17,205 nt of DNA from IMG/VR virus record IMGVR_UViG_2548876701_000026, one strand, 5' to 3'. A program made the translations under genes and the position numbers. The notes below the pieces were generated by a model. That model ran no database searches, was not told where the DNA came from, and was given only the letters and a program-made list of their open reading frames with translations. Positions 203 through 15,992 of the stretch are shown one piece after another (position 1 is the first letter of the stretch; each line of letters starts with the position of its first letter). The DNA is from a virus (lineage: Duplodnaviria > Heunggongvirae > Uroviricota > Caudoviricetes).

Positions 203-931
203 TTAGAGTCCCTCCAGCTTGCCGGATTGGGCTTGCTTCAGGAGATGCTCTTGCTTCTGCTGGTCGGTGCCAGTGAAGGCAATAAGGATGCCTCGCAGTT
301 TATCGACTATCGCAGGCTTACCGAAGACCTCCAATCCCTTAGCGTTGAAGCGAAAGTTATAACCACCTGCTGAGAACTTCTGGTCTGACGGCTTAATGAT
401 ACGGAAGCAGTCGGAATACTTTGGATTTACAGACCACTCGTTACTGATTGGGTTCTTACGAAAGAGACCACGATGCTGAAGAAGTGCGGTCATTAGCTTC
501 TGAGCGGGTAGACCATAGGTTTTGCAGTAGTCGCCCCAAGTCACGCCTCGGCGGTTAGCGGACTGAATGGCTGCTCGCTTCTTCTGGTCTTCCAGTTGAA
601 GGACTCGACGCTCTAACGTCTGAATATGGTCGTAACACTTGGCGCGGAGGTGAACGGAATAGCCAGCGACCAGAATGAAAGTATGCTTACGGTCGAGACG
701 GTACAGAGGCTGCTGTTTCCCCTGCGCGTTTAGATAGACATCTTCAGTCACCCCGATATGACTGCTCAGTTTTGAGCACTGCTCAGTTTTGAGCGCGTTA
801 AGCTCCTCAGCCATATTGCGAATATCACGTAGGACATTTCGGTGCTCCTTGCCTGTCAGCTCAGCAATTTCAACTGAGGTCATGGAGACAAGCTGGTCGA
901 GGTTAATGACGCTGATTTCTTGTTGAGACAT
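203..931 (-). CDS. Rha-family phage regulatory protein with antirepressor (KilAC-like) C-terminal region
   Basis: N-terminal segment SVEIAELTGKEHRNVLRDIRNM matches the Rha-family signature as I remember it. AAGGAG-like RBS upstream of the ATG at 931. 242 aa. Confidence 0.7.
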   Translation of the reverse strand: MSQQEISVINLDQLVSMTSVEIAELTGKEHRNVLRDIRNMAEELNALKTEQCSKLSSHIGVTEDVYLNAQGKQQPLYRLDRKHTFILVAGYSVHLRAKCYDHIQTLERRVLQLEDQKKRAAIQSANRRGVTWGDYCKTYGLPAQKLMTALLQHRGLFRKNPISNEWSVNPKYSDCFRIIKPSDQKFSAGGYNFRFNAKGLEVFGKPAIVDKLRGILIAFTGTDQQKQEHLLKQAQSGKLEGL

Positions 932-1233
932 TTACGTGTACTCCTTTTGTTTGCACCCTGAAGTCGCACCCCCACTGACCTACTCAAGCCCCCACGTAAA
1001 GGGAGACCAGCAGGCAACAGGACGCAAACAGAATGACTTGAGGTAATTGGGGTTAGTGGTCTGCGATGACCATAGAGATGAAGGTTCGACAGCATGTCCG
1101 AGCGTGTGTGGTGATAGACTTAAGTCACGAGACCAAAGAACACAAAGGCTGACCAGAGGCTGGTGGCTAGCAAGCTAGCGTGGACCACGGTTTCTCGCTT
1201 GCCGTCTCTCAGGAGGTCAGAGGCGAGATATGG

Positions 1234-1255
1234 TCCCTATAGTGATAGTTTAGTC
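1234..1255 (-). promoter_or_regulatory. T7-class single-subunit RNA polymerase promoter-like element (copy 1), predicted start near 1237 reading leftward into the Rha gene
   Basis: Minus strand reads GACTAAACTATCACTATAGGGA; the core TCACTATAGGGA equals the -8..+4 core of the T7 consensus TAATACGACTCACTATAGGGAGA. Exact 21-nt direct repeat of 1793-1813. Confidence 0.5.
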
Positions 1256-1587
1256 AAACAGGAATGAACTTCGGAGAACCTGACGCGAAAGTGTTCAGTA
1301 CTTCCAGTTAGACCCGAAGTATGGAGAACCACATCATAGCGACCGTAGTATACTTCGGGCTGACAGGACTGGAGGCTGGACTTAAAGTTCTTCTTATTGG
1401 AATTGTGATAACACAATCCATAACAAGATGAACTCATGGTCTCCTCAAGCCTGCTGGTCAGGCTCAAAGCTCCAACCTCAGACACCACTGGTCTAACCTT
1501 TTTGAGTTTCCGCCTGTCCACAAATGGATGGCAGACCTCAGCAATGATGTCTTGGTTCTTCACAATCTCGCACACCGATGGTCGCAT
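1237..1587 (-). CDS. hypothetical protein (116 aa by ORF track; alternative start at 1437 with GAGGAG RBS gives 66 aa)
   Basis: ORF lies between promoter-like copies 2 and 1. Weak RBS at 1587, better RBS before the internal ATG at 1437. No motif recognised; could be spurious. Confidence 0.2.
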   Translation of the reverse strand: MRPSVCEIVKNQDIIAEVCHPFVDRRKLKKVRPVVSEVGALSLTSRLEETMSSSCYGLCYHNSNKKNFKSSLQSCQPEVYYGRYDVVLHTSGLTGSTEHFRVRFSEVHSCLTKLSL

Positions 1588-1790
1588 AGACGGATACTTC
1601 CGCTGCGGTCTGATGTTCTCCGCCTGTCAAAGGAGAGAGATTGCTACGTTAAAGGGAATGGTCTCAGGCCAAGGTGATTTAACACTAGGCTTATTGCGGA
1701 TGGTTTCCAATCGGTCCGCTACCGGAAGCCTGAGACTTAATGAATGTGTGGGTCGGTGGCTGTATTAAGCCCGGGGGGACTTAGGGTCTC

Positions 1791-1813
1791 TCCCCTATAG
1801 TGATAGTTTAGTC
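1791..1813 (-). promoter_or_regulatory. T7-class promoter-like element (copy 2), predicted start near 1795
   Basis: Minus strand reads GACTAAACTATCACTATAGGGGAGAGACC. Identical 21-mer to copy 1, and GGGGAGAGACC resembles the T7 initiating region GGGAGACC. Confidence 0.5.
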
Positions 1814-1820
1814 CCCCCCC
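1813..1820. repeat. C8/G8 homopolymer tract between promoter-like copies 3 and 2
   Basis: cccccccc at 1813-1820, read directly. Confidence 0.9.
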
Positions 1821-1839
1821 TTCCCCTATAGTGTGGGTT

Positions 1840-1840
<1 letters not shown>
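1821..1840 (-). promoter_or_regulatory. T7/SP6/K11-class promoter-like element (copy 3, divergent upstream half), immediately after the stop of the 1840-2499 gene
   Basis: Minus strand reads AAACCCACACTATAGGGGAA; CACACTATAGGG core. Confidence 0.35.
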
Positions 1841-4099
<2,259 letters not shown>

Positions 4100-4340
4100 G
4101 TACTGAGACCTTAGGTCTGCTCACTACTTCAACAAAGTTAGTCACAGTGTTGGTTACAGTGAGTAAAACTATCGGAAGGCTTTAAGCCGTATCCCTTAGG
4201 ATTCAGTAAGTTAGTAGACTTTAAGAATGGTCATGGAGCGGGCGAAGGGAATCGAGGAAACCCATAATAACCTGCTGTAAAATAAAGATTTTGTGATCAA
4301 TCATAGGTAACTGATTACGTGATAATAGAGGATCATTATC

Positions 4341-5561
4341 GTGTCGATCAAGAGCCAAGCATACTTATTTAAGAGAAAAGATGGGATCTGGATGTTTCAG
4401 ATTTTTGTTCCTAAATACTTACGTCATCTTTACCCTTACAAGTTGTGGAGAAAAAGCACATCTACACGAGATCTGAATGAGGCGAGAAGATTCAGAAACC
4501 ATCTATTATTAGAATGGGAGGAACTAAAGCGGAAACATAATCCTGATAACCCCGAAAGGAGGTTACAACAAGCTATTGAATCCTTACATTCAGAGGCAAG
4601 GGCCAATAAAAACACGCAAAGAGCCGTAAAACGCGGTTATGCATCGCCTTCCCTATGCTTAATACGTGACGAATACGCCGAATGCTACAGAGAGCGTCGT
4701 TCATACTCAACACTACAGAAATCAGCAAGGGCCGTTGAGCTATTTTTACAAAGCATTCAGAAAGATGATATTCATATTGAGAAAATAGGCAGACGGCTTG
4801 TAACAGTATTCTTAGATGACCAGAAGCAACGAGGAGCAGCCGATCAATCTCGTCAAAACTGGCTTACATGCTTAGGATCGCTCTATGAATTTGCTAAACG
4901 CCGTTATGACGGAATACCAGACAGTAACCCTTTTCACGGTCATAATCTCGAAGCACGTCGCACAATCGAGAGTTATCAACCGTTTACACCTGAACAAATG
5001 CAAAAGCTACTTGATGCAGCGGAGCCGGAGATCAGAAATATTATTTTAATGGGCTTGTTTTCAGGATGCAGATTAGACGAACTGGCAAGTCTGAAAAAGT
5101 CAGAGGTTGTAACTGTGGAAGGAATACGCTGTTTTTATATCAGCAAAAGTAAGACTAAAGCAGGGATCAGGCACGTTCCGATACATTCGAGACTATCGAT
5201 TATTGTCGATGAATATTTAAATCATAATTATGGTGAATATTTGTTCCCTCACTCGAACAAAGTAAAAAGAATCGACGGTAAGAAAGGCCCGTTCTATTCT
5301 CAAGCGTTCTCACGTTTACGTCGTAGCGTCTTGCCAATCGCTACAAATAGACAATGCTTTCACAGCTTGCGCGGGATGTTTATCACTTGTCTTGATCGTG
5401 CCGGAGTGCCTGAACAGCGGATCGGTGCCATTACCGGACATACAGAGCAGAGAGCTAAAACAGAAGCCTTTCGCACCTACTCACAAGGGGCAAGCATTCC
5501 AGAATTAGCTGAATATGTAGAATTAGTAAGATATGAATTAAATATTGATTTTAAGGCTTAA
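4341..5561 (+). CDS. int: tyrosine site-specific recombinase / phage integrase (406 aa, GTG start)
   Basis: R in GCRLDELASL, H-x-x-R in HSLRGMFITCL, GHTEQ...AFRTYSQ with the Tyr. N-terminus YLFKRKDGIWMFQIFVP parallels the other integrase. AGAGGA RBS 8 nt upstream of GTG. Confidence 0.85.
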   Translation: MSIKSQAYLFKRKDGIWMFQIFVPKYLRHLYPYKLWRKSTSTRDLNEARRFRNHLLLEWEELKRKHNPDNPERRLQQAIESLHSEARANKNTQRAVKRGYASPSLCLIRDEYAECYRERRSYSTLQKSARAVELFLQSIQKDDIHIEKIGRRLVTVFLDDQKQRGAADQSRQNWLTCLGSLYEFAKRRYDGIPDSNPFHGHNLEARRTIESYQPFTPEQMQKLLDAAEPEIRNIILMGLFSGCRLDELASLKKSEVVTVEGIRCFYISKSKTKAGIRHVPIHSRLSIIVDEYLNHNYGEYLFPHSNKVKRIDGKKGPFYSQAFSRLRRSVLPIATNRQCFHSLRGMFITCLDRAGVPEQRIGAITGHTEQRAKTEAFRTYSQGASIPELAEYVELVRYELNIDFKA

Positions 5562-5668: not shown

Positions 5669-7510
5669 TTAACTTGGTGCTTGCCCAGACAGAGCCGCCA
5701 ACGTGAAACTACGTTCAAAATCTTGTTGGATACTTCCCACTTTGTAATCGAGGTATGATCCAAGCTGACTACCATCAGGAGCGATATTCACATCAACCTT
5801 ACTTTCTGGCACGTTTACGACAATGCTTGGCGCATACGTCATAGATGGGGTAGTGTTCAGATCACGGCTAACGTTCTCTTTCAGGGATTGCACGTTATCG
5901 GACGGGCTTGAATAGTTCTGAATTGCAGTTCCGCCAGTCGTTGGCTTGTCTTCCGTGCCAGGGATAGGCGATAAGCCTAAAGCACTACGACCCCAATCAA
6001 CCATGCCGCCTACAAACGAATCCTTATAATACATACCGGACGAATCAAGGTTTTCATGTTTGTTCTCTGGATTTATATTCTGGTATGCAGCAGTAAGCCA
6101 CGATACAGCACCAGCAAAGGCGCTCATCATTTCAGCCGTTGAGCTTCCAAGTTCTTTAAACAGAGGATTGAGATCTTTCAACATTTGCGCCCACTCTTCA
6201 CCAGCCTGAGCGTCGAACTCTTCACCGAATCCCGTCATGATAGCTTTCTTACTACCTTCCCAGGCCATATTCATATTAGCCTGTACAGCTTGCAGACGTT
6301 CAGCAGCGTCAAGATCCGCTTGCGTATAGGTGGCATTGGCTTTTTGCATCTTAACGATGGTTTTATTTAGCTCTTCACCGTTACGACTGAAAGCACCACG
6401 GAAATATTGTAAATCATTTCCAAGGTCTTCAAGGATGTGACCCTGCTCCTGATCAGAGAGTCCACGGCGTTCTCCTTCTTTCACTACAGCGCCCAGGAAA
6501 CCTAATGGATCAGTCTGGAAACCTTTAATCTGTTCAGGACTCCAACCATATTTATTAAGGATGTTATCGACGGCACCATTACCGCCAGCCCAGCGACCTT
6601 TCTTAGCGTCCCATTTGGTATTCCCTACGGATTCACCTAAACGCTCTTGAACGTCTTTAAGGTTGTCTTGACGTTGGTCTACGGAACTATCGACACCGTG
6701 TTCTAAGCCGTACTGATTAAGTGCTAACAGGGCGTTAGTGTTTACGTTGACAGCCTTTGCCTTGCGGTTAGTGTCTGTGATCTTGCTTGCCTGATCGGTT
6801 ACGGTATTGAATATCGCAGCACCGCCGAGAGTGGCAGCAGTGAGAGCGGCACCGCCCACCATTGCACCTACACCACCGCCTATATGACCGCCTTTAAGCT
6901 GTTTAGCCATATGTGGATATTTACCGCCATCAGCCGCCACCTGGCGAGCTTTTACAGCAGCCGCACGGCGTTCTAACGTGATACGATCACGGATCAGGTG
7001 ATTCATCTTAGCCTGACTAATAGCGCCTTTCTCATACGCTGCCGTTTGTGCTTTGATGTATTGCAACGTTTTGTAGTATTGGGCGGAGTCCATACCGTCG
7101 CCCATACGCCCTTTCTTAATCCCTTCAAGCTGTCTGAAAGCTTGCTGGCGCTTAATCTCTGCTTTCTCTGCTATTGTCGCTTTAGCGCGGATCTGTTTAT
7201 CGGCAGCTATAGCGGCTTTAGCCTTCGCTTTAGCTTCTGCCTTTGCCACCTTATCAGCGTTCTTCTTATCGGTTTGAGCTTGCTTGTCTGACGCTTTGGC
7301 ATCAGTTTTAGCCTGTGCAGCTTTACGAGCCTTTACCAGATCATGAGCCTCGTCTATAGCTCGTTTAGCCTTCTTCCCTTTCAATGTTGGATTGGTTAGG
7401 TTTTCCATTTCTTTCTGAAATTTCTTCCCTGCGTCCCTTGCTTTCTGTAATGATGCAAAATCAACTTTAAATACAACCTTGTTTGTTAAGGTTGAGATGT
7501 TTAAATCCAT
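5669..7510 (-). CDS. large coiled-coil / glycine-zipper protein, tape-measure-like virion protein (613 aa)
   Basis: Lys/Ala/Glu-rich heptad-like N-terminal third (KVAKAEAKAKAKAAIAADKQIRAKA), hydrophobic Gly-zipper GGHIGGGVGAMVGGAALTAATLGGAAIF, long low-complexity C-terminus. AAGGA RBS upstream. Product assignment by composition only. Confidence 0.45.
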   Translation of the reverse strand: MDLNISTLTNKVVFKVDFASLQKARDAGKKFQKEMENLTNPTLKGKKAKRAIDEAHDLVKARKAAQAKTDAKASDKQAQTDKKNADKVAKAEAKAKAKAAIAADKQIRAKATIAEKAEIKRQQAFRQLEGIKKGRMGDGMDSAQYYKTLQYIKAQTAAYEKGAISQAKMNHLIRDRITLERRAAAVKARQVAADGGKYPHMAKQLKGGHIGGGVGAMVGGAALTAATLGGAAIFNTVTDQASKITDTNRKAKAVNVNTNALLALNQYGLEHGVDSSVDQRQDNLKDVQERLGESVGNTKWDAKKGRWAGGNGAVDNILNKYGWSPEQIKGFQTDPLGFLGAVVKEGERRGLSDQEQGHILEDLGNDLQYFRGAFSRNGEELNKTIVKMQKANATYTQADLDAAERLQAVQANMNMAWEGSKKAIMTGFGEEFDAQAGEEWAQMLKDLNPLFKELGSSTAEMMSAFAGAVSWLTAAYQNINPENKHENLDSSGMYYKDSFVGGMVDWGRSALGLSPIPGTEDKPTTGGTAIQNYSSPSDNVQSLKENVSRDLNTTPSMTYAPSIVVNVPESKVDVNIAPDGSQLGSYLDYKVGSIQQDFERSFTLAALSGQAPS

Positions 7511-7526
7511 AATATTTTCCTTTACC

Positions 7527-7562
7527 TTTTATTTGTTTTGTTTTGTTTTGTTTTGTTTTGTT
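7527..7562. repeat. pentanucleotide simple-sequence repeat (TTTTG)n on plus = (CAAAA)n on minus, about 6 units
   Basis: tttg followed by five perfect ttttg units at 7536-7560, read directly. Encodes the C-terminal KQNKTKQNK of the HTH gene and sits 18 nt upstream of the 613-aa start. Confidence 0.9.
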
Positions 7563-7735
7563 ACGTAGTATTGCACTGCTTCCATAGCTGAGCAGCCAGT
7601 AGTGAAGATTCTTTGACGTACAGCAGTATTAGAGATCCCTAAAAACTTACACACTTGAGAGATATTCAGAATATCTTCCGGTAAGGTGGAAACAGCTTTC
7701 AGGATCTCAACTGGATTGTTGTTTTGTTCGCTCAT
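7529..7735 (-). CDS. small helix-turn-helix DNA-binding protein (AlpA/excisionase-like), 68 aa from the ATG at 7735 (ORF track extends to 7786)
   Basis: ILNISQVCKFLGISNTAVRQRI is a classic HTH. The N-terminal 17 codons of the 7786 start overlap the upstream terminator hairpin, so the internal Met (MSEQ) is preferred. C-terminus is encoded by the (CAAAA)n repeat. Confidence 0.5.
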   Translation of the reverse strand: MSEQNNNPVEILKAVSTLPEDILNISQVCKFLGISNTAVRQRIFTTGCSAMEAVQYYVTKQNKTKQNK

Positions 7736-7778
7736 GATTTTTCTCTCACAATATTTTAATAGACGGTATAAACGAAAA

Positions 7779-7839
7779 AAGGGCAAAAGAGATTGTTTAC
7801 TGTATTTGCGCTACAGGTTTAATAATCCCTTTTGCCCTT
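7779..7839 (-). terminator. intrinsic terminator after the capsid-like gene (long-loop hairpin plus U6 on the minus transcript)
   Basis: aagggcaaaag (7779-7789) and cttttgccctt (7829-7839) are perfect inverted repeats; aaaaaa at 7773-7778 gives UUUUUU 3' of the stem on the minus strand. The 39-nt loop contains an inner ctgta/tacag hairpin. Confidence 0.4.
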
Positions 7840-7888
7840 ATTGCCTGTTTTATTTCCAGTCGCACAGGAAACGACTATTAACGCTTTA

Positions 7889-8917
7889 TTACGCTACTGT
7901 GATCTGTACAGTGAAGCCTACGCCGTGGTTTACAACCATCTGGCTATTCTCAGTAACTACGTTTACAGCGTCGTTACGTGCTGGGCTAAACGCATAGCTG
8001 TAATATTCAGCCGCGCCAGAATTCAGCAGGTCGAACGTTGAAGAAGGAGCGCCGAAAATGTTCTGATAGACGTTAGAGCCTTTAGCGAACTTCGGAACAG
8101 CAACCGCATCAGAAGTCATATGAGCCAGCAGCAGCGGATCAGTAACTTTAACGATATCGATGTTAGTCCCAGGAATAGTGAAGGTAGTCACACCTGGCAG
8201 CAGGGAGCGCACGCTATAAACGATGTTTGCGTCATCGGTAGGGCTTGCATACTGGAACGCGTTAACCATGCCAGCACTGTAACGGATAGCGTTGAAAGCA
8301 GCAGGTTTACAGAATACAACGATACGTTCTACAGCAGCCGCCTGGCTTTGTGCTTTAGTAATAACGTCTGTATGCATCTGATCGAATTGCTGGAACACCA
8401 TAGAAGGCGTGGTGCTTGATGCGTCGATGGTTGCAGTCATCGGAACAACACTAAACAGATCGCCCCACTGGATCAGCACATCATCAGTTTTAGGGGTGTA
8501 AGTGCGACCAGAGAACAGGGAAGCAGCCAGCACGCTTTCTTTAGTACGCTGGAAAGCAATGTGGTGCTTAGCAACATATTCCGCGTAGATATCTGTCAGA
8601 GTTTCTTCAACGGTAGCGCCTGGTTTACGTTTGCCTTGCACGTCTTGCGGCTTAATCATATCTTCACGCAGGAAGTAGGGGATCTCTACTAAAAATTCTT
8701 TACCCTGTTCACGTTTAGTCACGTTATGTTCAGAAGAGAAACGAGAGGTTTCTTTGTTGAACAGAGATTCGTTAGTTTCCACCAGTTGGCTAACAGCCAC
8801 TTTATGAGAACTCACACCTACCGGATCAGTAAAGTCGAGAGAAGTTAACAGGAAGTTGCGAGAGTCGTGCAGACTAAACAGCGGAGCCAGATCGACGGAT
8901 TCATTACCAATAATCAT
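7889..8917 (-). CDS. putative major capsid protein, lambda gpE-like (342 aa)
   Basis: Size and synteny (about 120-aa decoration-like gene immediately upstream, terminator downstream). Loose colinear resemblance to lambda gpE as I recall it (segments IAFQRTKESVLAASLFSGRTYT and ERIVVFCKPAAFNAIRYS). AAAGGAA RBS. Not verified by search. Confidence 0.45.
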   Translation of the reverse strand: MIIGNESVDLAPLFSLHDSRNFLLTSLDFTDPVGVSSHKVAVSQLVETNESLFNKETSRFSSEHNVTKREQGKEFLVEIPYFLREDMIKPQDVQGKRKPGATVEETLTDIYAEYVAKHHIAFQRTKESVLAASLFSGRTYTPKTDDVLIQWGDLFSVVPMTATIDASSTTPSMVFQQFDQMHTDVITKAQSQAAAVERIVVFCKPAAFNAIRYSAGMVNAFQYASPTDDANIVYSVRSLLPGVTTFTIPGTNIDIVKVTDPLLLAHMTSDAVAVPKFAKGSNVYQNIFGAPSSTFDLLNSGAAEYYSYAFSPARNDAVNVVTENSQMVVNHGVGFTVQITVA

Positions 8918-8935
8918 TATTTTTATTCCTTTATA

Positions 8936-9307
8936 TTAAGATGTGAATACAGTGTTAAAACCAGCCATCTGGAAACCTTTTGCAGCCAGGGCAGCAATAG
9001 CAGCTTCTTTCACAGCGCCTTCAACATTCAGAGCATCGGACTTGATGCAAACCAGTCCGGCATTGCTACGCAGCACGTTAACGGTTTTAGCGTCGCCAGC
9101 GGATACCGCATCAGACACAACTACAAGAACATCGCCGCCGCTTACATATTCAGCGCCGTCACTGGTAATCAGATCGCCGCATTCAACATCAACCGCCAGA
9201 TCAACGGTAAAAGATTGCACACAACCGAACTCATCAGTTGCATATGAAACGATATCGGTAAATGATTTGCGAACTGGAAACAGATCGCTCATATTAATAA
9301 TAGCCAT
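8936..9307 (-). CDS. putative head decoration protein (gpD-like), 123 aa
   Basis: Position immediately upstream of the capsid-like gene; small Ala/Val/Gly/Asp-rich protein with a C-terminal AAIAALAAKG segment. AAGGAAA RBS. Confidence 0.35.
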   Translation of the reverse strand: MAIINMSDLFPVRKSFTDIVSYATDEFGCVQSFTVDLAVDVECGDLITSDGAEYVSGGDVLVVVSDAVSAGDAKTVNVLRSNAGLVCIKSDALNVEGAVKEAAIAALAAKGFQMAGFNTVFTS

Positions 9308-9309
9308 AA

Positions 9310-9525
9310 TTAATAGTTTCCTTTTTTGGATTGTTTGATTTGTTCTGCTTTTGCTTTAATCAGATCCTGCATAGTAGGTTTCTGTTCATCAGCAGACTTA
9401 AAAAGCTTATCACAATGTTTTTTCAATTCTGTGGGAGTGATCCCCAGCATATAAGCCGTAGCATTGAATGTTTCATCAGTGATAACCAATTCTTCGTTAC
9501 CATTCTTTAGAATGAGATTTTGCAT
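9310..9525 (-). CDS. hypothetical small protein (71 aa), first gene of the capsid-like cluster
   Basis: ORF with stop abutting the start of the decoration-like gene. No motif recognised. Confidence 0.4.
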   Translation of the reverse strand: MQNLILKNGNEELVITDETFNATAYMLGITPTELKKHCDKLFKSADEQKPTMQDLIKAKAEQIKQSKKGNY

Positions 9526-9578
9526 TATTGCTTTACCTTTATTCCTAACAGTCTTGTTTAGTGCTGATAAAAATAAAA

Positions 9579-9599
9579 CCGGAAGGGGAAAGCTTCCGG
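9579..9599 (-). terminator. intrinsic terminator (minus-strand orientation)
   Basis: ccggaag / cttccgg form a 7-bp GC-rich stem with a 7-nt loop; on the minus strand it is followed by UUUUAUUUUUAU (plus 9565-9577). Confidence 0.55.
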
Positions 9600-10115
9600 C
9601 TTTATGAATACAACATTTGAAGGATGTTATAGAGTGTTACTAAATCGCAGTTTATATGAACTTAAAGAGGAGGACATATAAGAATAAGATTGCTTATTGT
9701 TATATACCCTTGAGGGGTGAATAACAGGCTTACAGGGAGTAGGCGCTTAGGAGGTCGCCCCCTTTGGAGAGGAATCTATAAACCTGTTATTCGTGCGACG
9801 GCTAATCGCTGTCTTTCACAATGTGGATGCATCGATCAGACTTTCAGGAATCACCTATTAACTTTCAAACCTTTTGGATTCTCATTTTAATAGGAGGCGG
9901 TGCCGAGATGATTTCGGGGATCATCCACGCTTTCGCGTTCTAAGATTGGCACCTTAATAAACACCAACAAACAAAAACATATTCAGCTTTAAGCTTAGTA
10001 GAAAACTGTTGTCAAGAAACAGATATACACCGTTATTTGTTTATACGGGGTTTATAGACACTGTAAACAGTGTTTTTAGAAAGTGTTTCATGCTTCGCAG
10101 TTGGTTAAAAAGATG

Positions 10116-10137
10116 AGGGGCCAAATCCGTAGCCCCT
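10116..10137 (-). terminator. candidate intrinsic terminator downstream of the small-gene operon
   Basis: aggggc / gcccct form a 6-bp stem with a 10-nt loop; the minus strand then reads CAUCUUUUUAACC. Confidence 0.35.
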
Positions 10138-10403
10138 GCATTCTTAAGACACAATTTTGATAAAGCAATAAGGAAAATAAAATGAAACTATTAACGAGGG
10201 AAACAATTTCTAAAAAATCACTGTAAAGGGAAAGCGGGATAGGTTAGATAGGGCGCGCCCCCTTGAGGTCTACCCCGCTTTCGTGTAGGATTAGAATCGG
10301 GAGAAGGATTAACGCCAGCTAACACATATTTTCGATTCAAAACCCCACATTTATTATTATAACATTTCTGTTAGTAAAAGTCAATAGGTAAATGCAATTA
10401 TTT

Positions 10404-10613
10404 TCAACTTTTTTCGGTTGTCAGTTCCCACTCACCAAATACGCAATTACCATCTAAAACGATTGTTTGATCGTTACCGTTATCATCGGTTACGTGCATC
10501 AGGCGGGTGTAAGTGTCGAGTAAGCCGGTATACACTTTACCTACTGTGAAACAATTACCCGCTTTCCCTTCTTCTGTGAGCGCCAGAAGGCGCACACGTT
10601 TAGTTTTTGTCAT
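10404..10613 (-). CDS. hypothetical small protein (69 aa), last gene of the operon
   Basis: Start overlaps the stop of the upstream gene (TAATG). No motif recognised. Confidence 0.45.
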   Translation of the reverse strand: MTKTKRVRLLALTEEGKAGNCFTVGKVYTGLLDTYTRLMHVTDDNGNDQTIVLDGNCVFGEWELTTEKS

Positions 10614-10921
10614 TAGTTGTTAGCCTTATCGATTAATTCATTAATGAGGGGTTGCAGATCTGCTACCGCTTCTTTCATGATTTCAGTGGTGTCATGAATG
10701 ACGATGATCAGATTAGAAAGGTCATCAGCTTCAATCTGTGCACCTTCGCTCTCTTCGCACGCTGCAATAAGTAGTTGCAGTGCTTCCCGCGTCGATTCCA
10801 GATTAATAACCGCCTGTGTGATGGTTAGCTCGCTTGGAAAAGTCAGAGCCGCGTTTACTGCTTTCTGTAAATCAATAACCAGATCCATCATTTGAATAGT
10901 TACGTTGTGTACTTCGCTCAT
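10613..10921 (-). CDS. hypothetical acidic protein (102 aa)
   Basis: TAATG overlap with both neighbours; Asp/Glu-rich helical-looking sequence. Confidence 0.45.
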   Translation of the reverse strand: MSEVHNVTIQMMDLVIDLQKAVNAALTFPSELTITQAVINLESTREALQLLIAACEESEGAQIEADDLSNLIIVIHDTTEIMKEAVADLQPLINELIDKANN

Positions 10922-11142
10922 TATGCCACTTCCTCTGATTGTTCTAATTGTTGTTGTGCTTCACGAGCTTTCTTCATAGCAATAGTGAGCGGGATTTTAT
11001 AAGTTGCAATGTTGTCTATAATATCATCGAGTAAACCGAGATCGTTTTCTTCCTGTGCACGTTCAATCAGGCTTATGAAGCATTCAGAAAGAAGTTTAAG
11101 ATCGTGAAAAGTGGTTGTCTCTAAAATTGCTTTGTTAATCAT
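10921..11142 (-). CDS. hypothetical small protein (73 aa)
   Basis: AAAAGGAAAA RBS upstream; acidic C-terminal tail. Confidence 0.45.
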   Translation of the reverse strand: MINKAILETTTFHDLKLLSECFISLIERAQEENDLGLLDDIIDNIATYKIPLTIAMKKAREAQQQLEQSEEVA

Positions 11143-11183
11143 TTTATTTTCCTTTTGTTAAGGGTTATATTCAGCAAACGCTG

Positions 11184-11564
11184 TTAATCGTCGATTTTTA
11201 TTTTATCAAGCAGAAGTAATTCGGTTTCTCTCACCCCTGCATATTGCAGACTGTTAAGAGCCATATACCCCCTAAAGTGGTGCATATCCTGAAAACCCAA
11301 ACACTGCCATCTTTTCAGAAGACTGGAATCTATAACCGTTGTTTTGCGTGGGCGCGGATTAAAGTAAACACCGTCCATACTTTGAATGAGTGATAATTCT
11401 TCGTCTGTTAATTCTGGGCTTGGTTCTTCAAGTATAAAGATCAATTCCTCGCCTGGTTGTGCATCATGCTCATAATTATATTTGCGAGGATTGTTTAACG
11501 CATACTGATCACATGCTTCGCCAATAGTTGTTATTACGTTTTTCTTGCCTTTTTTCTTGCTCAT
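11184..11564 (-). CDS. hypothetical protein (126 aa)
   Basis: GAAGGGGAAG RBS; basic N-terminus MSKKKGKKN. No motif recognised. Confidence 0.45.
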   Translation of the reverse strand: MSKKKGKKNVITTIGEACDQYALNNPRKYNYEHDAQPGEELIFILEEPSPELTDEELSLIQSMDGVYFNPRPRKTTVIDSSLLKRWQCLGFQDMHHFRGYMALNSLQYAGVRETELLLLDKIKIDD

Positions 11565-11685
11565 TGCTTCCCCTTCGTTTTGTTTTTCTTGTTGCAGTGT
11601 TAAAAAAGGAAGCGATCATAAATACTAAGAAAAATATTAAGCTTTCCATTGTTTCACCCTTCAAGATGTTTGATAGTTGTTTGTT

Positions 11686-11904
11686 TTAAGCTACAGAGTC
11701 GATTCTGAATGCTTTCATATGAGTTTTGGTATACTGCAATAATCCTTGTTTACTTAGGCTATCGAGAAGAGCATATAAAAATTGCTCACCTACCACACCG
11801 GAAAACTCAGAATCAAACAGAATCATTCCCGTTCTTTCCCGTAAATATTGCAGAAAGGTTTCTTGTGAAAATTCGCTATCGAATATGGTCACAGCGCCAC
11901 CCAC
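11686..11904 (-). CDS. hypothetical protein (72 aa, GTG start); possibly the downstream half of a frameshifted gene with 11889-12146
   Basis: GTG start overlaps the end of the upstream ORF by 16 nt in another frame; internal duplication IFDSEFS ... LFDSEFS. Confidence 0.3.
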   Translation of the reverse strand: MGGAVTIFDSEFSQETFLQYLRERTGMILFDSEFSGVVGEQFLYALLDSLSKQGLLQYTKTHMKAFRIDSVA

Positions 11905-12146
11905 AATTCGAAAGGGCTTATCTCAAGCAAACGGAACGTCTGACTATTCACAGCCTCATACTTAATTACCCCAAAATGGCTCAGGTGATTTAACCAGTGC
12001 TGTGTGTGTTCTTTACTATGAGGTAACTCCTGAAAGCTGATAATCGCGGGTAGCTCATAATTGCTATCAGCAAGCTGTTTTGCCAGTGTGTAGCCGCTTT
12101 CTGTAATTTCGAATGTTCGTTTGTTTAATGTCAGGTTGTATTTCAT
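11889..12146 (-). CDS. hypothetical protein (85 aa)
   Basis: AAGGAG RBS 9 nt upstream of the ATG; stop of the Rep-like gene is 12 nt upstream. Confidence 0.45.
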   Translation of the reverse strand: MKYNLTLNKRTFEITESGYTLAKQLADSNYELPAIISFQELPHSKEHTQHWLNHLSHFGVIKYEAVNSQTFRLLEISPFELWVAL

Positions 12147-12158
12147 TTTTTATTCTCC

Positions 12159-12824
12159 TTAAAATGGTATTGAGTCATAGATTTCACTTTCTTTTCTCAG
12201 GGCTATCATCAGTGCATTAAAAGCATCATCTTCAAGAATTATCCTCTTCGAGGTCAGTGCACGTTTTATAAAATTTTCTGTTTCTTCTTGCATAGGCTTT
12301 TGGCTGTCTATGGAAATAAGCCATGTAAAAAGATCAGATTGTTCCGTGATTTCTGCCTGTGTTTCCTGCTCAATAGAGTGTGTCGCTTCTAACGGTTCCT
12401 GTGTTTCAGGTGCAGGCTGTTCTACGTTTACAGAGGTTTTTACGTCTTCCGGTGGTGTGATGTGTGCATCTGTAAAGGGTAATGCTTTATAGAGTGATGT
12501 TTGCCCGTCCCGTGCCTCTACAGAAAGAACACCCATATCAATAAACATATTTATAATATTACGCACCTGACGATCACTAACCATTCCAATATTAGCTAAT
12601 GTTTTTTGATTGGCGTAACATTCTTGCCCTTGTTCATTGAACCCAGCTACGTAACTGTAGATTTCAACGGCTGGAAGTGTCGCGGTGTATTCCTTACCTG
12701 ACGGTGAGAACCACTTTTTAAACATCTTCAGCCATTGTTCAACTACTACATATGTTTGTTTACTATCTTTCTTATTGAGGCATTGCGCTTTTGCTTCGGC
12801 AATTGTTTTGGTGTTTTGGTTCAT
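12159..12824 (-). CDS. winged-helix DNA-binding protein resembling phage/plasmid replication initiator or replisome-organizer N-terminal domains (221 aa)
   Basis: Segment YSYVAGFNEQGQECYANQKTLANIGMVSDRQVRNIINMFIDMGVL fits the pattern (Y..N...G.CY.SQ.TLA...G.S...V.R.I..L...G.I) seen in Rep/replisome-organizer HTH domains; acidic linker follows. AAAGGAGG RBS. Confidence 0.5.
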   Translation of the reverse strand: MNQNTKTIAEAKAQCLNKKDSKQTYVVVEQWLKMFKKWFSPSGKEYTATLPAVEIYSYVAGFNEQGQECYANQKTLANIGMVSDRQVRNIINMFIDMGVLSVEARDGQTSLYKALPFTDAHITPPEDVKTSVNVEQPAPETQEPLEATHSIEQETQAEITEQSDLFTWLISIDSQKPMQEETENFIKRALTSKRIILEDDAFNALMIALRKESEIYDSIPF

Positions 12825-12948
12825 TTAGTTCCTCCTTTGTAAGGACTGTAATTAGTAATTCATTAACAAGTTTTGGAATTGATTTCCCTTCTGCCTTTGC
12901 ACGATTTAACAACGCGTTATAAGTTGCAGAATCAAAATTAATATTCAT
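12772..12948 (-). CDS. small DNA-binding-like protein, possibly ribbon-helix-helix (58 aa; below the ORF-track cutoff)
   Basis: ATG at 12948 with AAGGAG RBS at 8-nt spacing. Hand translation MNINFDSATYNALLNRAKAEGKSIPKLVNELLITVLTKEEL... shows a strand-helix-helix pattern. Overlaps the start of the Rep-like gene by about 50 nt. Confidence 0.4.
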   Translation of the reverse strand: MNINFDSATYNALLNRAKAEGKSIPKLVNELLITVLTKEELNEPKHQNNCRSKSAMPQ

Positions 12949-12971
12949 TTGGTTTTCTCCTTCTCCTGTTA

Positions 12972-13154
12972 TTATTCTTTCTCTGCTTCTGCCTTACGCA
13001 GTTCATCAATAATTTTTAGTGCATCGTCAAAGCATTTTTCACGCTCTGGATAACCACAGCGCCGCGCTGTGTTCCTGTTCATCCTTACTTGATGTCGTGT
13101 TAGCTCACCTTTTTTAAATGCCTCTACGACGTGTTCCGGTGTATACCATTTCAT
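12972..13154 (-). CDS. hypothetical small basic protein (60 aa from the ATG at 13154; ORF track begins at a GTG at 13187)
   Basis: AAGGAG RBS 6 nt upstream of the ATG (MKWYTPEHVV...). First gene of the leftward operon. Confidence 0.45.
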   Translation of the reverse strand: MKWYTPEHVVEAFKKGELTRHQVRMNRNTARRCGYPEREKCFDDALKIIDELRKAEAEKE

Positions 13155-13769
13155 AAAAAACTCCTTATTTAGATAAAAGAAAAACACACCTTGCAGCCTG
13201 ACGGCTCAAAGTGCAGTGTTCTGTGATTTGATTATTTAGATGGAGAGAGATGTTTCTCCCCTCCCTACTTACAATACTACATAACGGCGGCTTTGTCAAC
13301 CCTCTCTTATAAAAAACTTGATCATTTTCAATTTCTTATAATTTTTCTTAGCTTTTTGTGCTGCCTACTCTGGTACAATTCTTCCCTGTTGCCTAAAACG
13401 CTCTCAATCGCACTCTGACGGGGGTTTTGATAAAAACAATACATTCCCTTATGTAGAGGTTGTTTATCTCGTCAGAGGCTTATTTAAGGGGCTTATTTTT
13501 GATTTATCAGATGATGGAAAGATGGTGGATAGATAAACTCTGATTTCAGACATCTTATAAAATACCTGTAAAGCTCCTCAGAAGCTCTATAACGAGCTAA
13601 TCTATTACCGCTAAGTGTTTCCCTACCTTATATACGTTTAGCTCGCCTACGGCTTGATTTAAGCGGTAGAAACTTATTTAACCTTCAACTACTAAAACCA
13701 TTCTTTCTTTTTTGTTTGTTGTTGGTTGTTGTCTGTGTCTATGTGCTAACATCGCTAACGCGTAGCACA

Positions 13770-14035
13770 CAAGGTTATTGCACTCGTCAGAGTATTGCAC
13801 AATAGATTTTCTCTTAAATAGATTGATGATCGTTAGATTGGCGTAAGCCTCATCAATGGAACTATTGAAGCGCACAGCGCATAGACACTAACAACCATTC
13901 GCTTACGCTCAGGTTATTGCACAAGTAAATTTCAATCGTTAGATGGTAGTTAGTTAATTATCGTTCTGCGCACAGCGCAAGACTATTAGCCATACGCAAG
14001 CCGTAGGCTATTTGCACATAGTAGATTACATATTC
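13770..14035. repeat. degenerate tandem repeats of about 100 bp carrying recurring TTGCACA, CGTTAGAT and CGCACAGCGCA motifs
   Basis: cgcacagcgca at 13871-13881 and 13969-13979; cgttagat at 13831 and 13937; aggttattgcac at 13772 and 13911. Confidence 0.5.
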
Positions 14036-14918
14036 GTTGTGAGCGGAAAGCGAACATAGATCAGCTAACTACTAACAAAAAACAAAAAACAAAAACTATC
14101 TGTTATGACAAGCATCAGTCTAACTTGTGCAAGGTTCTGGCGAATGCCAATAGATTAAGGGATAGTCGAAGACTCCCTAACGGGTATCCCTATAATTATT
14201 CTTTAAAAGATAAAAGAATTTATAAAAGATAGTTTAATTGTAGTTTAATTATAGTATTGTAGGAACTCATTTCCTGGGTAGGTAGGAAACCCGCACTATA
14301 CGGTAAAAAGTGCTTGCATGTCAACTTATATTATGTTAATTGCGGCTTTAGATCGTCTAAGTGATTGTTAAAAGTAACTTTTAAAGTTAACAATTGATCA
14401 ATCAAACTTAAAAATTCCCGGCTTTAGAAAAGCATAAGTATTGTGCACACTGGTAAGTGTCTTGCACAGAAAAAGGTGTAAAAAATGTCTAAAGCCCTTT
14501 AGATAAAAATGATACCTTTATACATGCGCTAATAGCGCGCATAACAATAACCTACTAACAACTAACTAAAAAGTAAGAAGATGTTGTTATGATTAGTGTA
14601 TCGCTCAACGCTCACATCTATCTCTGATCTATAAATTGGTAACTGTCTAACAACAACAAACAACTATTACATGCAAAACAGCCTTACGGCTGCATAGAGA
14701 TGATTGGCTAACCTTCGGTTGCTACGCATAGCCATATCTATGAGAAGATAAAAGAGATTTAAAGGTTAGTTTGTTGTTGATCTAACTAACATTCGCTATA
14801 CGCTCATACAATCTACATTACACATTAACTATCAAACTACAATCTAACGATATATAGAATCTATATCCACTCATTATCATTCGTGCAATGATCACATTGA
14901 TAGTTCGCTATACGCTCA
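13898..14918 (+). repeat. four same-orientation iteron-like direct repeats TCGCT-N2/3-ACGCTCA; candidate origin or recombinase-binding region
   Basis: Copies at 13898-13911, 14601-14614, 14792-14806 and 14904-14918, inside a 2.25-kb AT-rich region with no credible ORF. Confidence 0.5.
14074..14094. repeat. (AACAAAA)3 heptanucleotide tandem repeat
   Basis: Read directly. Confidence 0.85.
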
Positions 14919-15440
14919 CCTCTATTATGTGCAATGGCTTTTCAGGCAACGCGTTAGCGTATTCTTGCGAATGCCTGATCTCCAAAGCCGGAATTAAACA
15001 GCAAGAATATCTCGTGTAAATCATAGAATATTCATAGTTTATCCCTATGTAATTCCATACTAAAAATTCAATGAAAAGTAGCTTAAAAGAGCAATGTTAG
15101 CTTTCTTCACTTTTACATTATCATCAGCAAAGCCTTATGTAATGCGGCATATAGCGCATCACTGCAAAATTGTTGCTCAATAAACGTTCTATCATTTATT
15201 GAACAAGTTTCCTTTAATGCAACAAAAAATTATTTTTTCAAAATAAACACACTATTTAATAGCTTGCTAATTTTACCAAAATGTAACTACATGATTCTCA
15301 TGCAAGACGTGTAGTGATAAAGCAGGCTAAATCACCACACTAAAAACCTTCGAATTTCGTAGTGAAAAAAGTCCTTTACACACCTAATCAACACGATCAA
15401 TAATCACTACACACAAATCAACACAGAAGGAATAAAGAAA

Positions 15441-15992
15441 ATGGCTAATATTGGATACATTAGGGTATCGACTGTGCAACAAAACACAGACCGTCAATTA
15501 GCTGGAGTAGCTCTTGATAAAGTCTTTGAAGATAAAGCGTCAGGCAAGAATACCCAGCGCCCACAGTTTGAGGCAATGATGAACTATGTGCGGGAAGGTG
15601 ATGTTTTGCATGTTCACAGTATTGATCGACTTTGCCGTAATACAGCCGACCTACTGGCAACGGTTGAGCAATTAACAGAGCGCGGCGTGTCTGTGCATTT
15701 CCATAAAGAAGACTTTAAGACAGGGAAGAACTCTCCCGCAGGGAATATGATGCTCACAGTGCTTGCAGCAGTGGCACAAATGGAACGTGAAATGATGCTT
15801 GAGCGCCAGCGTGAGGGGATCGCCGCAGCTAAGGCCGCTGGACGTATAGCAAAACGTGGTAATGGAAAAGCAATTGATCGAGCGGGAATTGCTGCCGCTC
15901 TCGCGAATGGTGGATCAATTCGGAGCGTAGCAAAAGATTTCAGTGTCAGCACACAAACGGTGCAACGTATCAAGAAAGAGCAGGAAGCGTAA
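15441..15992 (+). CDS. small serine recombinase of the resolvase/invertase family (183 aa)
   Basis: N-terminus MANIGYIRVSTVQQNTDRQ with the catalytic Ser in the GY(I/A)RVS-T motif; DRLCRN; C-terminal HTH GSIRSVAKDFSVSTQTVQRI. Compares well with Hin/Gin/TnpR as I recall them. AAGGA RBS. Confidence 0.85.
   Translation: MANIGYIRVSTVQQNTDRQLAGVALDKVFEDKASGKNTQRPQFEAMMNYVREGDVLHVHSIDRLCRNTADLLATVEQLTERGVSVHFHKEDFKTGKNSPAGNMMLTVLAAVAQMEREMMLERQREGIAAAKAAGRIAKRGNGKAIDRAGIAAALANGGSIRSVAKDFSVSTQTVQRIKKEQEA

What the first reader, a model, noticed from the sequence alone, without database searches (positions are those of the whole stretch)
10404..13154. Translationally coupled operon of about ten small genes with RHH-like and Rep-like DNA-binding proteins and seven products of no recognisable function
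The genes are packed with TAATG overlaps or gaps under 45 nt and nearly all have strong RBSs. Only two show recognisable DNA-binding signatures; the rest (58-126 aa, several strongly acidic) have none. Clusters like this in satellites and prophages often hold anti-defence, helper-interference or host-takeover factors.
Basis: partly seen in the sequence, partly recalled or inferred. Interest (0 to 1): 0.6.

Follow-up and report, generated by a model that had tools for sequence, protein, structure and literature searches.

The report
Early operon of unrecognised phage satellite
The cluster is a real nine-gene operon that most likely acts as the control and replication centre of a 13.5-kb E. coli island, which looks like an undescribed satellite of large virulent phAPEC8-type phages; most of its small proteins still match nothing known.

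Summary
The minus strand 13154->10404 carries nine tightly packed genes under purifying selection, not ten. The tenth ORF (11509-11649) is not conserved as a gene.

The operon lies in a 13,474-bp island. The island is bounded by 22-bp direct repeats at tRNA-Gly and also encodes an integrase, a major capsid protein and a tape-measure-like protein. Relatives occur in about 14% of complete E. coli genomes and in Klebsiella, and some form circular 13.3-13.9-kb contigs.

Four island genes have their only or best phage homologues in Stephanstirmvirinae, which are virulent myoviruses of about 150 kb:
- the capsid protein;
- the tape measure;
- the g3 DNA-binding domain (75% identity);
- g9 (45% identity).

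Gene assignments:
- g2 is RHH-like.
- The g3 model best matches the N-terminal domain of PLE RepA, a satellite replication initiator. g3 ends in an acidic ...IPF tip like the C-terminus of E. coli SSB.
- g1 and g4-g9 stay unassigned after profile searches; the one product modelled and fold-searched (g6) gave no fold match either.

Best reading: this is the early regulatory and replication operon of an apparently undescribed satellite family. Helper dependence, replication-origin binding and the roles of the small proteins are untested.

The parts
13271..13299 (-). Promoter-like site upstream of g1 (TTGACA-17-TATTGT)
   Evidence: Found in the promoter scan. The -35 TTGACA is invariant in 7 related elements, while the -10 varies but stays promoter-like.
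13175..13214 (-). Leader stem-loop (13186-13214) followed by a U-rich tract (13175-13184), about 20 nt before the g1 start: a possible attenuator or terminator
   Evidence: Fold z-score is -2.8. The stem and U tract are conserved in all 7 relatives. Function is inferred.
12972..13154 (-). g1, 60 aa, basic, the most conserved gene of the family; function unknown
   Evidence: 75-89% identical in all E. coli relatives, with pN/pS 0.07-0.21. Homologues occur in Escherichia, Klebsiella, Leclercia and Raoultella. No family or PDB match.
12772..12948 (-). g2, 58 aa, RHH-like small DNA-binding protein; overlaps g3 by 53 nt
   Evidence: The strand-helix-helix pattern is kept in three divergent variants and in Klebsiella. 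PHROG matches are weak: phrog_36888 at 2.7e-4 and a 'transcriptional regulator' family at 0.023. No Pfam RHH hit.
12159..12824 (-). g3, 221 aa: winged-helix domain, disordered acidic linker, small helical C-domain and an SSB-like C-terminal tip (EIYDSIPF); putative replication initiator
11889..12146 (-). g4, 85 aa, family-wide; possibly a small winged-helix protein (inferred from sequence pattern only)
   Evidence: pN/pS about 0.1. Homologues of 26-47% identity in L003, L005 and L006. No family match.
11686..11892 (-). g5, 68 aa, GTG start overlapping the g4 stop; internal 'FDSEFS' repeat; variable in the family
   Evidence: pN/pS 0.15-0.31. Found only in the helicase-type relatives. The best library match of any kind was a PADLOC BrxA model at E 6e-4 and 17 bits, judged noise.
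11565..11685 (-). Conserved non-coding g5-g6 spacer; it contains the non-gene ORF 11509-11649
   Evidence: The ORF stretch, which covers most of the spacer, is 96-97% identical in six relatives, while the flanking genes are 80-94% identical. The ORF has a stop in all six.
11184..11564 (-). g6, 126 aa, family core gene of unknown function
   Evidence: 35-49% identical homologues in the thrW variants and Klebsiella. Only 19 representative clusters among 1.84 billion proteins. AF2 core 38-105 is confident. No PDB fold or sequence match.
10921..11142 (-). g7, 73 aa, acidic (pI 4.45); function unknown
   Evidence: pN/pS 0.14-0.19. A gene of 67-79 aa sits at the same position in the other subfamilies except L006, without detectable sequence similarity.
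10613..10921 (-). g8, 102 aa, strongly acidic (pI 4.05, net -14); function unknown
   Evidence: pN/pS 0.14-0.25. 27.5% identity to the 100-aa gene of L004 at pairwise E 1e-11. No family match.
10404..10613 (-). g9, 69 aa, homologue of a small early-region protein of phAPEC8-type phages
   Evidence: phrog_27862 at 5.9e-15. 45% identity over the full length to phAPEC8 gp032 and to 70 other phage records, nearly all Stephanstirmvirinae. pN/pS 0.11-0.15.
10356..10384 (-). Second strong promoter-like site (TTGACT-17-TGtTATAAT) immediately after the g9 stop
   Evidence: Promoter scan, 11 of 12 matches. Conserved in six elements.
9573..10348 (-). ORF-free gap between the operon and the structural genes, with terminator-like hairpins at 10116-10137 and 9573-9605; candidate leader or small RNAs
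   Evidence: 93% mean column identity across six elements, higher than the neighbouring genes. Terminators found in the scan. Predicted hairpins with one compensatory pair. No Rfam match.
5669..9525 (-). Downstream structural module: 71 aa, 123 aa, major capsid protein (7889-8917), a gene of about 68 aa, and a 613-aa tape-measure-like protein (5669-7510)
   Evidence: Phage_cap_E 7.6e-12 and phrog_16051 7.9e-65. Best phage homologues are Stephanstirmvirinae.
4234..5561 (+). Island end: 22-bp direct repeat (4234-4255), identical to the 3' end of tRNA-Gly, and a tyrosine integrase (4341-5561)
   Evidence: The repeat is also found at L001 19709, giving an island of 13,474 bp. Integrase assignment from Pfam and PHROG.

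Best explanation
The nine genes form the early regulatory and replication operon of a 13.5-kb integrative phage satellite. Its helpers are most likely virulent phAPEC8-type myoviruses (Stephanstirmvirinae).

Proposed mechanism:
- Transcription starts at a sigma-70-type promoter (13299-13271). It must pass a conserved terminator-like leader hairpin before g1.
- g1 and the RHH-like g2 are small regulators. This is inferred.
- g3 is a RepA_N-like initiator. Its winged-helix domain would bind a site in the element. Its acidic ...IPF tip, resembling the SSB C-terminus, would recruit host proteins that normally dock on SSB, such as primase, PriA or the Pol III chi subunit. This is inferred.
- g4 and g6-g8 are family-core proteins of unknown activity.
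- g9 is a copy of a helper early protein. It probably mimics or competes with the helper version. This is inferred.
- The operon ends at a second strong promoter followed by two terminators, ahead of the capsid and tape-measure genes. Late expression therefore probably depends on read-through control.

Shown here: the gene structure, purifying selection, the family and island context, the homologies, and the fold resemblance of g3.

Inferred: helper dependence, origin binding, recruitment through the SSB-like tip, and antitermination.
For: - Real, packed genes with strong ribosome-binding sites.
- Island bounded by 22-bp repeats at tRNA-Gly, with an integrase.
- The same layout at thrW in E. 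coli and in K. pneumoniae. The promoter-proximal part is present in 745 of 5426 complete E. coli genomes.
- Circular whole-element contigs of 13.3-13.9 kb.
- Links to Stephanstirmvirinae: capsid protein; tape measure in the syntenic position; Dit of a sister element 60% identical to the gene next to the phage tape measure; g3 domain 75% identical to muut gp094; g9 45% identical to phAPEC8 gp032.
- The acidic-[IL]PF tip is kept across four different C-termini. It was otherwise seen in 1 of 2824 ORFs scanned. The SSB tip DDDIPF is the known docking motif (PMC5872125, PMC10018359).
- The leader hairpin and the downstream promoter-terminator arrangement are conserved.
Against: - No helper induction, packaging or replication data exist.
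- Neither Pfam RepA_N nor any RHH model is matched.
- No iterons were tied to g3. The upstream repeats do not co-vary simply with the g3 N-domain type.
- The Klebsiella counterpart lacks the IPF tip.
- Capsid and tape-measure identities to the phages are low (24-34%), so the true helper could be an unsampled relative.
- No terminase, portal or recognisable packaging-redirection gene was found.
Confidence: 0.6

Rival explanations
1. g3 is the island's master transcriptional regulator, a repressor or activator comparable to SaPI Stl or a CI-type protein. On this view the operon is mainly a regulatory circuit, and replication is supplied entirely by the helper or host.
Against: No S24 peptidase or oligomerisation domain was found. 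PHROG hits are all to replication initiators, in both the E. coli and Klebsiella slot proteins. A helicase-like protein fills the slot in sister elements. The longest and closest structural match is PLE RepA-NTD. An SSB-like tip has no obvious role in a repressor.
Confidence: 0.2
2. The small unassigned genes (g4-g9) are chiefly helper-interference, host-takeover or anti-defence factors. On this view they are not core life-cycle functions.
For: The proteins are small, some are acidic, and they lack family matches. g9 copies a helper early gene and could act as a decoy. Known satellites such as PLE and P4 carry such factors (established knowledge).
Against: g4, g6 and g8 have homologues in several subfamilies, and a g7-sized gene keeps its position in most of them, under purifying selection. 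This differs from typical fast-turnover accessory genes. PADLOC gave nothing meaningful. The recognisable accessory cargo (recombinase, YecR, Imm_superinfect, Dam) sits elsewhere, next to the attachment site.
Confidence: 0.3
3. The region is a decaying prophage remnant, and the ORFs are leftovers without current function.
For: The island lacks most virion and lysis genes. A neighbouring integrase, DUF4145 and Rha block (window 203-4099) looks like a remnant.
Against: pN/pS is 0.1-0.3 for eight genes. The compact architecture is the same in E. coli at two tRNA sites and in Klebsiella. The island has intact attachment repeats and an intact integrase. Circular whole-element contigs exist.
Confidence: 0.05

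Closest known systems
[quoted passage not shown]
   Same: It is an integrated island of similar size that parasitises a virulent myovirus. Its initiator RepA has a RepA_N-type winged-helix N-domain (PDB 4RO3). That domain is the closest full-domain structural match of g3. Like g3, RepA has no primase or helicase domain and has a host- or helper-specific C-domain.
   Different: There is no sequence homology. PLE uses a large serine recombinase and the helper's own coat protein. This island has a tyrosine integrase and encodes its own capsid and tape-measure proteins. The SSB-like tip is not described for PLE RepA.
Capsid-forming PICIs (cf-PICIs) of Enterobacteriaceae
   Same: They are E. coli and Klebsiella satellites that encode their own HK97-fold major capsid protein.
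   Different: cf-PICIs carry a full head module (portal, protease, connectors, small terminase) and an alpA and primase-rep module (established knowledge; PMC10085698). None of these was found here. This island instead carries a tape measure, and its relatives also carry Dit.
P4-like satellites
   Same: They integrate at tRNA genes with a tyrosine integrase and are about 11-13 kb. Their early operon is controlled by transcription termination in a leader (established knowledge of P4 CI RNA immunity).
   Different: No sid, psu, delta or alpha primase-helicase homologues were found. P4's helper, P2, is temperate. The leader-terminator resemblance is an analogy only.
RepA_N plasmid initiators (pSK41 and pTZ2162 RepA; PDB 4PQL, 4PT7)
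   Same: They have an N-terminal winged-helix DNA-binding domain plus a genus-specific C-domain that contacts host replication proteins. Both appear among the longer Foldseek alignments.
   Different: Pfam RepA_N (PF06970) is not matched. No iterons were identified. The family is mostly found in Firmicutes.
C-terminal tip of E. coli SSB (SSB-Ct, ...DFDDDIPF)
   Same: g3-family proteins end in EIYDSIPF, YEDFDIPF, YDDFDIPF or EEDDFDIPF. In the g3 model the tip itself is low-confidence, and a disordered acidic linker lies upstream, before the small C-domain.
   Different: g3 is a double-stranded-DNA-type winged-helix protein, not an OB-fold ssDNA binder. Binding to SSB partner proteins is untested.

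Membership tests
Ribbon-helix-helix (Arc/MetJ/CopG) regulators - g2 | About 45-residue N-terminal beta-strand followed by two helices with the conserved hydrophobic pattern | tested here: inconclusive
   The pattern is visible and kept in three divergent variants. There is no Pfam RHH match at E<=0.1. PHROG hits are only weak. No structure was predicted.
RepA_N replication initiators - g3 | N-terminal domain with the RepA_N/DnaD-like winged-helix fold | tested here: met
RepA_N replication initiators - g3 | Sequence match to Pfam RepA_N (PF06970) | tested here: not met
   Only HTH_36 was found, at 1.1e-4 and below its cut-off.
RepA_N replication initiators - g3 | Binds iterons at a cognate origin and drives replication | not testable with these tools
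   Repeats exist upstream at 13750-14000 and 14790-14960, but none could be tied to g3.
SSB-Ct-type docking motif - g3 tail | Acidic residues followed by a C-terminal I/L-P-F carrying the free carboxylate | tested here: met
   Present in every Escherichia protein in the g3 slot, across four C-terminal variants. Otherwise seen in 1 of 2824 ORFs scanned.
SSB-Ct-type docking motif - g3 tail | Binds SSB-interacting proteins (DnaG, PriA, chi, RecQ and others) | not testable with these tools
   Needs pull-down or ITC experiments.
Phage satellite (general) | Integrative element with its own integrase and attachment sites, lacking a complete virion gene set | tested here: met
   22-bp direct repeats and an integrase. 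Only a capsid protein and a tape-measure-like protein were recognised among the five products of the structural block; no portal, terminase or tail tube was found.
Phage satellite (general) | Induced, replicated and packaged only with a helper phage | not testable with these tools
   The evidence is indirect: four genes are homologous to Stephanstirmvirinae genes, and circular contigs exist.
cf-PICI | Own portal, prohead protease, head-tail connectors and small terminase, plus an alpA and primase-rep module | tested here: not met
   None was detected by Pfam or PHROGs in the island's proteins.
P4-like satellite | Sid, Psu, Delta and alpha primase-helicase core genes | tested here: not met
   No PHROG or Pfam matches.

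The most novel reading that the evidence does not exclude
The operon is the control and replication centre of a previously undescribed family of E. coli and Klebsiella satellites. Members are either integrated at tRNA genes or episomal. They parasitise virulent Stephanstirmvirinae myoviruses of about 150 kb while encoding their own capsid, tape-measure and (in some members) Dit proteins. Their RepA_N-like initiator uses a mimic of the SSB C-terminal tip to recruit host replication factors to the satellite origin.
Probability: 0.4. Interest if true: 0.8.

Novelty: new variant of a known kind. Interest (0 to 1): 0.68.

Why it matters
phAPEC8-type and phi92-type phages are widely isolated for therapy against E. 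coli and Klebsiella. About one in seven complete E. coli genomes carries a relative of this island, including O26 and O104:H4 pathotypes. If the island is a satellite of these phages, it could affect phage efficacy and move genes between strains.

Mechanistically it would give a second example, after PLE and ICP1, of a satellite of a virulent myovirus. Unlike PLE, it brings its own capsid and tape-measure genes.

It would also be an example of a sequence-specific DNA-binding protein carrying an SSB-tip mimic. That offers a simple, testable way of recruiting the host replisome.

Finally, six or seven conserved small proteins without any known fold or family become defined targets for functional work.

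Tried and rejected
- Rfam scan of the whole window at E<=1: no match.
- Pfam, PHROGs, NCBIfam and PADLOC on all ten ORFs: only weak or no hits except for g3 and g9. Scanning divergent family members did not help.
- PDB profile searches with the g1, g3 and g6 alignments: nothing below E 0.09.
- g6 structure model against the PDB: no credible fold match.
- ORF 11509-11649 as a small membrane protein: rejected, because it has a stop codon in all relatives.
- ORFs 13678-13875 and 10218-10340 as genes: rejected on the same grounds.
- The idea that the island is a small plasmid already in PLSDB: no small plasmid matched.
- IMG/VR hits to the capsid protein are prophage calls from isolate genomes, so they say nothing about packaging.
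- Search for an SSB-like tail in the roughly 112 kb of phage muut that was fetched: none ends in acidic-IPF. The tip therefore resembles host SSB rather than a helper protein.
- Simple co-variation between the g3 N-domain type and the upstream repeats: not seen.
- A genome-contig scan with g1 patterns returned only Escherichia-type loci. The wider host range came from protein searches.
- Eight literature searches found no description of this island family or of a Stephanstirmvirinae satellite.
Full report
**1. What is in the sequence**

The finding lies on the minus strand. ORF listing and direct reading give nine genes running from 13154 down to 10404:

| Gene | Coordinates | Length |
|---|---|---|
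| g1 | 12972-13154 | 60 aa |
| g2 | 12772-12948 | 58 aa |
| g3 | 12159-12824 | 221 aa |
| g4 | 11889-12146 | 85 aa |
| g5 | 11686-11892 | 68 aa (GTG start) |
| g6 | 11184-11564 | 126 aa |
| g7 | 10921-11142 | 73 aa |
| g8 | 10613-10921 | 102 aa |
| g9 | 10404-10613 | 69 aa |

- g7/g8 and g8/g9 share TAATG, and g4/g5 share GTGA.
- g2 runs 53 nt into g3.
- The other gaps are 12, 23, 41 and 121 nt.
- Six of nine starts pair with the anti-Shine-Dalgarno sequence at -6 kcal/mol or stronger, against 9% of all ATGs in the window.

**2. Are they genes?**

I compared the window with related elements fetched later (L003-L008, L015-L021).
- g1 and g3-g9 show pN/pS of 0.07-0.35 with no internal stops in ungapped full-length comparisons.
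- g2 is not annotated in RefSeq. Its first 46 residues are invariant in close relatives, and all its changes lie in the tail that overlaps g3. More distant variants keep a strand-helix-helix pattern.
- ORF 11509-11649 is needed to reach 'about ten' genes with all gaps under 45 nt. It has a stop codon in all six close relatives, with no synonymous and 3-4 non-synonymous differences. It is not a gene.
- That ORF stretch, which covers most of the 121-nt g5-g6 spacer, is 96-97% conserved. The flanking genes are 80-94% conserved.

**3. Context**

The window is E. coli O26:H11-type chromosome next to tRNA-Gly, actS and xdhA.
- A 22-bp repeat (TGGAGCGGGCGAAGGGAATCGA) occurs at window 4234-4255 and at the 3' end of the tRNA. 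It delimits a 13,474-bp island.
- Read in the direction of the operon, the island contains:
  - cargo next to the tRNA (a YecR-like lipoprotein and a serine recombinase);
  - a 2.2-kb ORF-free AT-rich region;
  - the operon;
  - an 880-nt ORF-free gap;
  - genes of 71 and 123 aa;
  - a major capsid protein (Phage_cap_E, 7.6e-12);
  - a gene of about 68 aa;
  - a 613-aa protein (phrog_16051 'tape measure', 7.9e-65);
  - a tyrosine integrase.
- No portal, terminase, protease or tail tube gene is present.

**4. A family**

- The promoter-proximal part of the operon matches 745 of 5426 complete E. coli genomes.
- Islands with the same layout sit at tRNA-Thr thrW in O104:H4, O26 and other strains. 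K. pneumoniae carries one as well.
- A 7.6-kb mini-variant without structural genes lies at the thiM riboswitch.
- The operon is mosaic:
  - g1 is 75-89% identical everywhere.
  - g3 is 70-75% or about 31% identical, depending on the variant.
  - g4, g6 and g8 have distant homologues in several subfamilies, and a g7-sized gene holds its position in most of them.
  - g5 and g9 are restricted to one subfamily.
- Several draft assemblies and Logan contigs consist of the element alone, at 13.3-13.9 kb and circularly permuted:
  - one contig has a 30-nt terminal overlap;
  - two contigs have ends that abut exactly inside the tape-measure gene;
  - three of these elements have no integrase at all.
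- Episomal circular forms therefore exist.

**5. Link to a helper**

| Island gene | Phage homologue | Identity |
|---|---|---|
| 613-aa protein | Tape measure of Phapecoctavirus phages, downstream of sheath, a virion structural protein and the chaperone | about 30% (C-terminal 380 aa) |
| Capsid protein | Best phage hits in the same phages and in Pseudomonas phages | 24-26% |
| Dit-like protein (sister elements only) | Gene just after the phage tape measure | 60% |
| g3, residues 30-143 | Second winged helix of muut gp094 (Justusliebigvirus), an early-cluster protein upstream of the DNA helicase | 75% |
| g9 | phAPEC8 gp032, in the equivalent early cluster | 45% over full length |

- All of these point to Stephanstirmvirinae, which are virulent myoviruses of about 150 kb.
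- Eight literature searches found no description of such a satellite.

**6. g3**

- Pfam gives only a sub-threshold HTH_36 match. PHROGs give weak hits, all to replication initiators.
- The Klebsiella protein in the same slot hits the same PHROG families. In the circular sister elements the slot holds a 492-aa SF2 helicase-like protein.
- An AlphaFold2 model built on a 16-sequence alignment shows four parts:
  - a confident winged-helix domain (about residues 30-120);
  - a disordered acidic linker (128-160);
  - a small helical C-domain;
  - a floppy tail.
- Foldseek E-values are weak (about 0.02). The longest alignments are to 4RO3, 4PQL and 4PT7.
- Generic regulators score similarly. The fold therefore supports the initiator reading but does not prove it.

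**7. An SSB-like tip**

- Every Escherichia protein in the g3 slot ends in an acidic stretch plus [IL]PF: EIYDSIPF, TIYDSLPF, YEDFDIPF, YDDFDIPF or EEDDFDIPF. This holds even though the preceding C-domains differ.
- Among 2824 ORFs of at least 50 aa in all fetched DNA, only these proteins and one unrelated phage ORF end in this way.
- The motif resembles the SSB C-terminal tip (DDDIPF). That tip docks primase, PriA, chi, RecO, RecG and others (PMC5872125, PMC10018359).
- No muut ORF in the roughly 112 kb examined has such a tail.
- I infer that g3 tethers SSB-partner proteins to a specific DNA site. This is untested, and the Klebsiella homologue lacks the tip.

**8. Regulation**

- The -35 hexamer TTGACA upstream of g1 is invariant in seven relatives.
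- The leader contains a conserved stem-loop (13186-13214) followed by a U tract, just before the g1 ribosome-binding site. This suggests attenuation.
- Directly after the g9 stop there is a second strong promoter (10384-10356). Two terminator-like hairpins follow, at 10137-10116 and 9605-9573.
- This gap is 93% conserved across six elements, more than the neighbouring genes.
- The arrangement resembles constitutive promoter, short terminated RNA and late genes, as at lambda PR'/tR'. This is an analogy only.

**9. The unassigned proteins**

- g1 and g4-g8 match nothing in four profile libraries. Divergent relatives match nothing either.
- g6 has only 19 representative clusters among 1.84 billion proteins, from Escherichia, Klebsiella and Serratia.
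- Its model has a confident core at residues 38-105, but there is no PDB fold match.
- g7 and g8 are strongly acidic.
- The conservation of g4, g6 and g8 across subfamilies argues for core life-cycle roles rather than accessory cargo.

**10. Verdict**

- The operon is best read as the early regulatory and replication operon of an apparently undescribed satellite family.
- Helper dependence, origin binding, the function of the SSB-like tip and the roles of six or seven small proteins remain to be shown.

Noticed in passing
window 9526-10403 (minus strand): An 880-nt ORF-free gap between the operon and the capsid genes is 93% conserved across six elements, more than the flanking genes. It has a strong promoter (10384-10356) and two terminator-like hairpins (10137-10116, 9605-9573). 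It may encode an RNA of about 240 nt and a longer structured leader. There is no Rfam match.
   Followed up: partly
window 13200-15440: A 2.2-kb AT-rich region contains no conserved ORF and is built from two blocks. Block 14293-14998 is 92% identical to the region just upstream of the operon in the circular sister elements. Block 13300-14290 is shared with the thrW islands. The region contains dispersed repeats (GTGCAATAACCT x2, ATCGTTAGAT x3, GCGCTGTGCGC x2, GAGCGTATAGCGAA x2) and a second promoter-like site at 14324-14295. It is a candidate origin, packaging site or RNA region.
   Followed up: partly
window 13704-13735, 14062-14093, 9955-9978, 11567-11590: A CAA/A-rich motif of about 24-32 nt recurs four times. 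In transcripts of the operon strand two copies read A-rich and two read U-rich, so they could pair with each other. This is reminiscent of RNA-RNA control in P4, or of Hfq (ARN)n sites.
   Followed up: no
L015, L017-L021 (contigs from E. coli draft assemblies and Logan): Whole-element contigs of 13.3-13.9 kb are circularly permuted. L018 has a 30-nt terminal overlap, and the ends of L020 and L021 abut exactly inside the tape-measure gene. L017, L020 and L021 lack any integrase and carry Imm_superinfect instead. This suggests plasmid-like episomal members.
   Followed up: partly
window 5669-7510 and 7889-8917; L018 10984-11631: The island encodes its own capsid protein and a tape-measure homologue. 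Sister elements also carry a Dit-like protein 60% identical to the Phapecoctavirus gene next to the tape measure. This is an unusual structural gene set for a satellite, because there is no portal, protease or terminase.
   Followed up: partly
window 15441-15992: A serine recombinase or invertase of 183 aa is 98-99% identical between islands whose neighbouring genes are only 70-80% identical. It lies beside imperfect inverted repeats (13753-13783/14929-14959 and 13935-13960/14826-14851). An invertible segment was considered. The top full-length hits aligned as single colinear pieces, but no dedicated search for inverted copies was made.
   Followed up: partly
L005 (E. coli CREC-544, thiM locus): A 7.6-kb mini-element carries the recombinase, the ORF-free region, g1, g2, g3 and one small gene, but no structural module. 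It is flanked by two copies of the TPP riboswitch and has its own integrase and HNH gene.
   Followed up: no
window 203-4099: To the left of the island's direct repeat lies a separate block: a Rha-family regulator, a DUF4145 protein and a 535-aa tyrosine integrase. GC content is higher here (about 0.50 against 0.38-0.44). It is probably a remnant of another integrated element in tandem.
   Followed up: no
window 7529-7735: The small gene between the capsid and tape-measure genes has a helix-turn-helix-like stretch (ISQVCKFLGISNTAVRQRI). It could be an excisionase or a small-terminase-like DNA binder. No Pfam or PHROG match was found.
   Followed up: no
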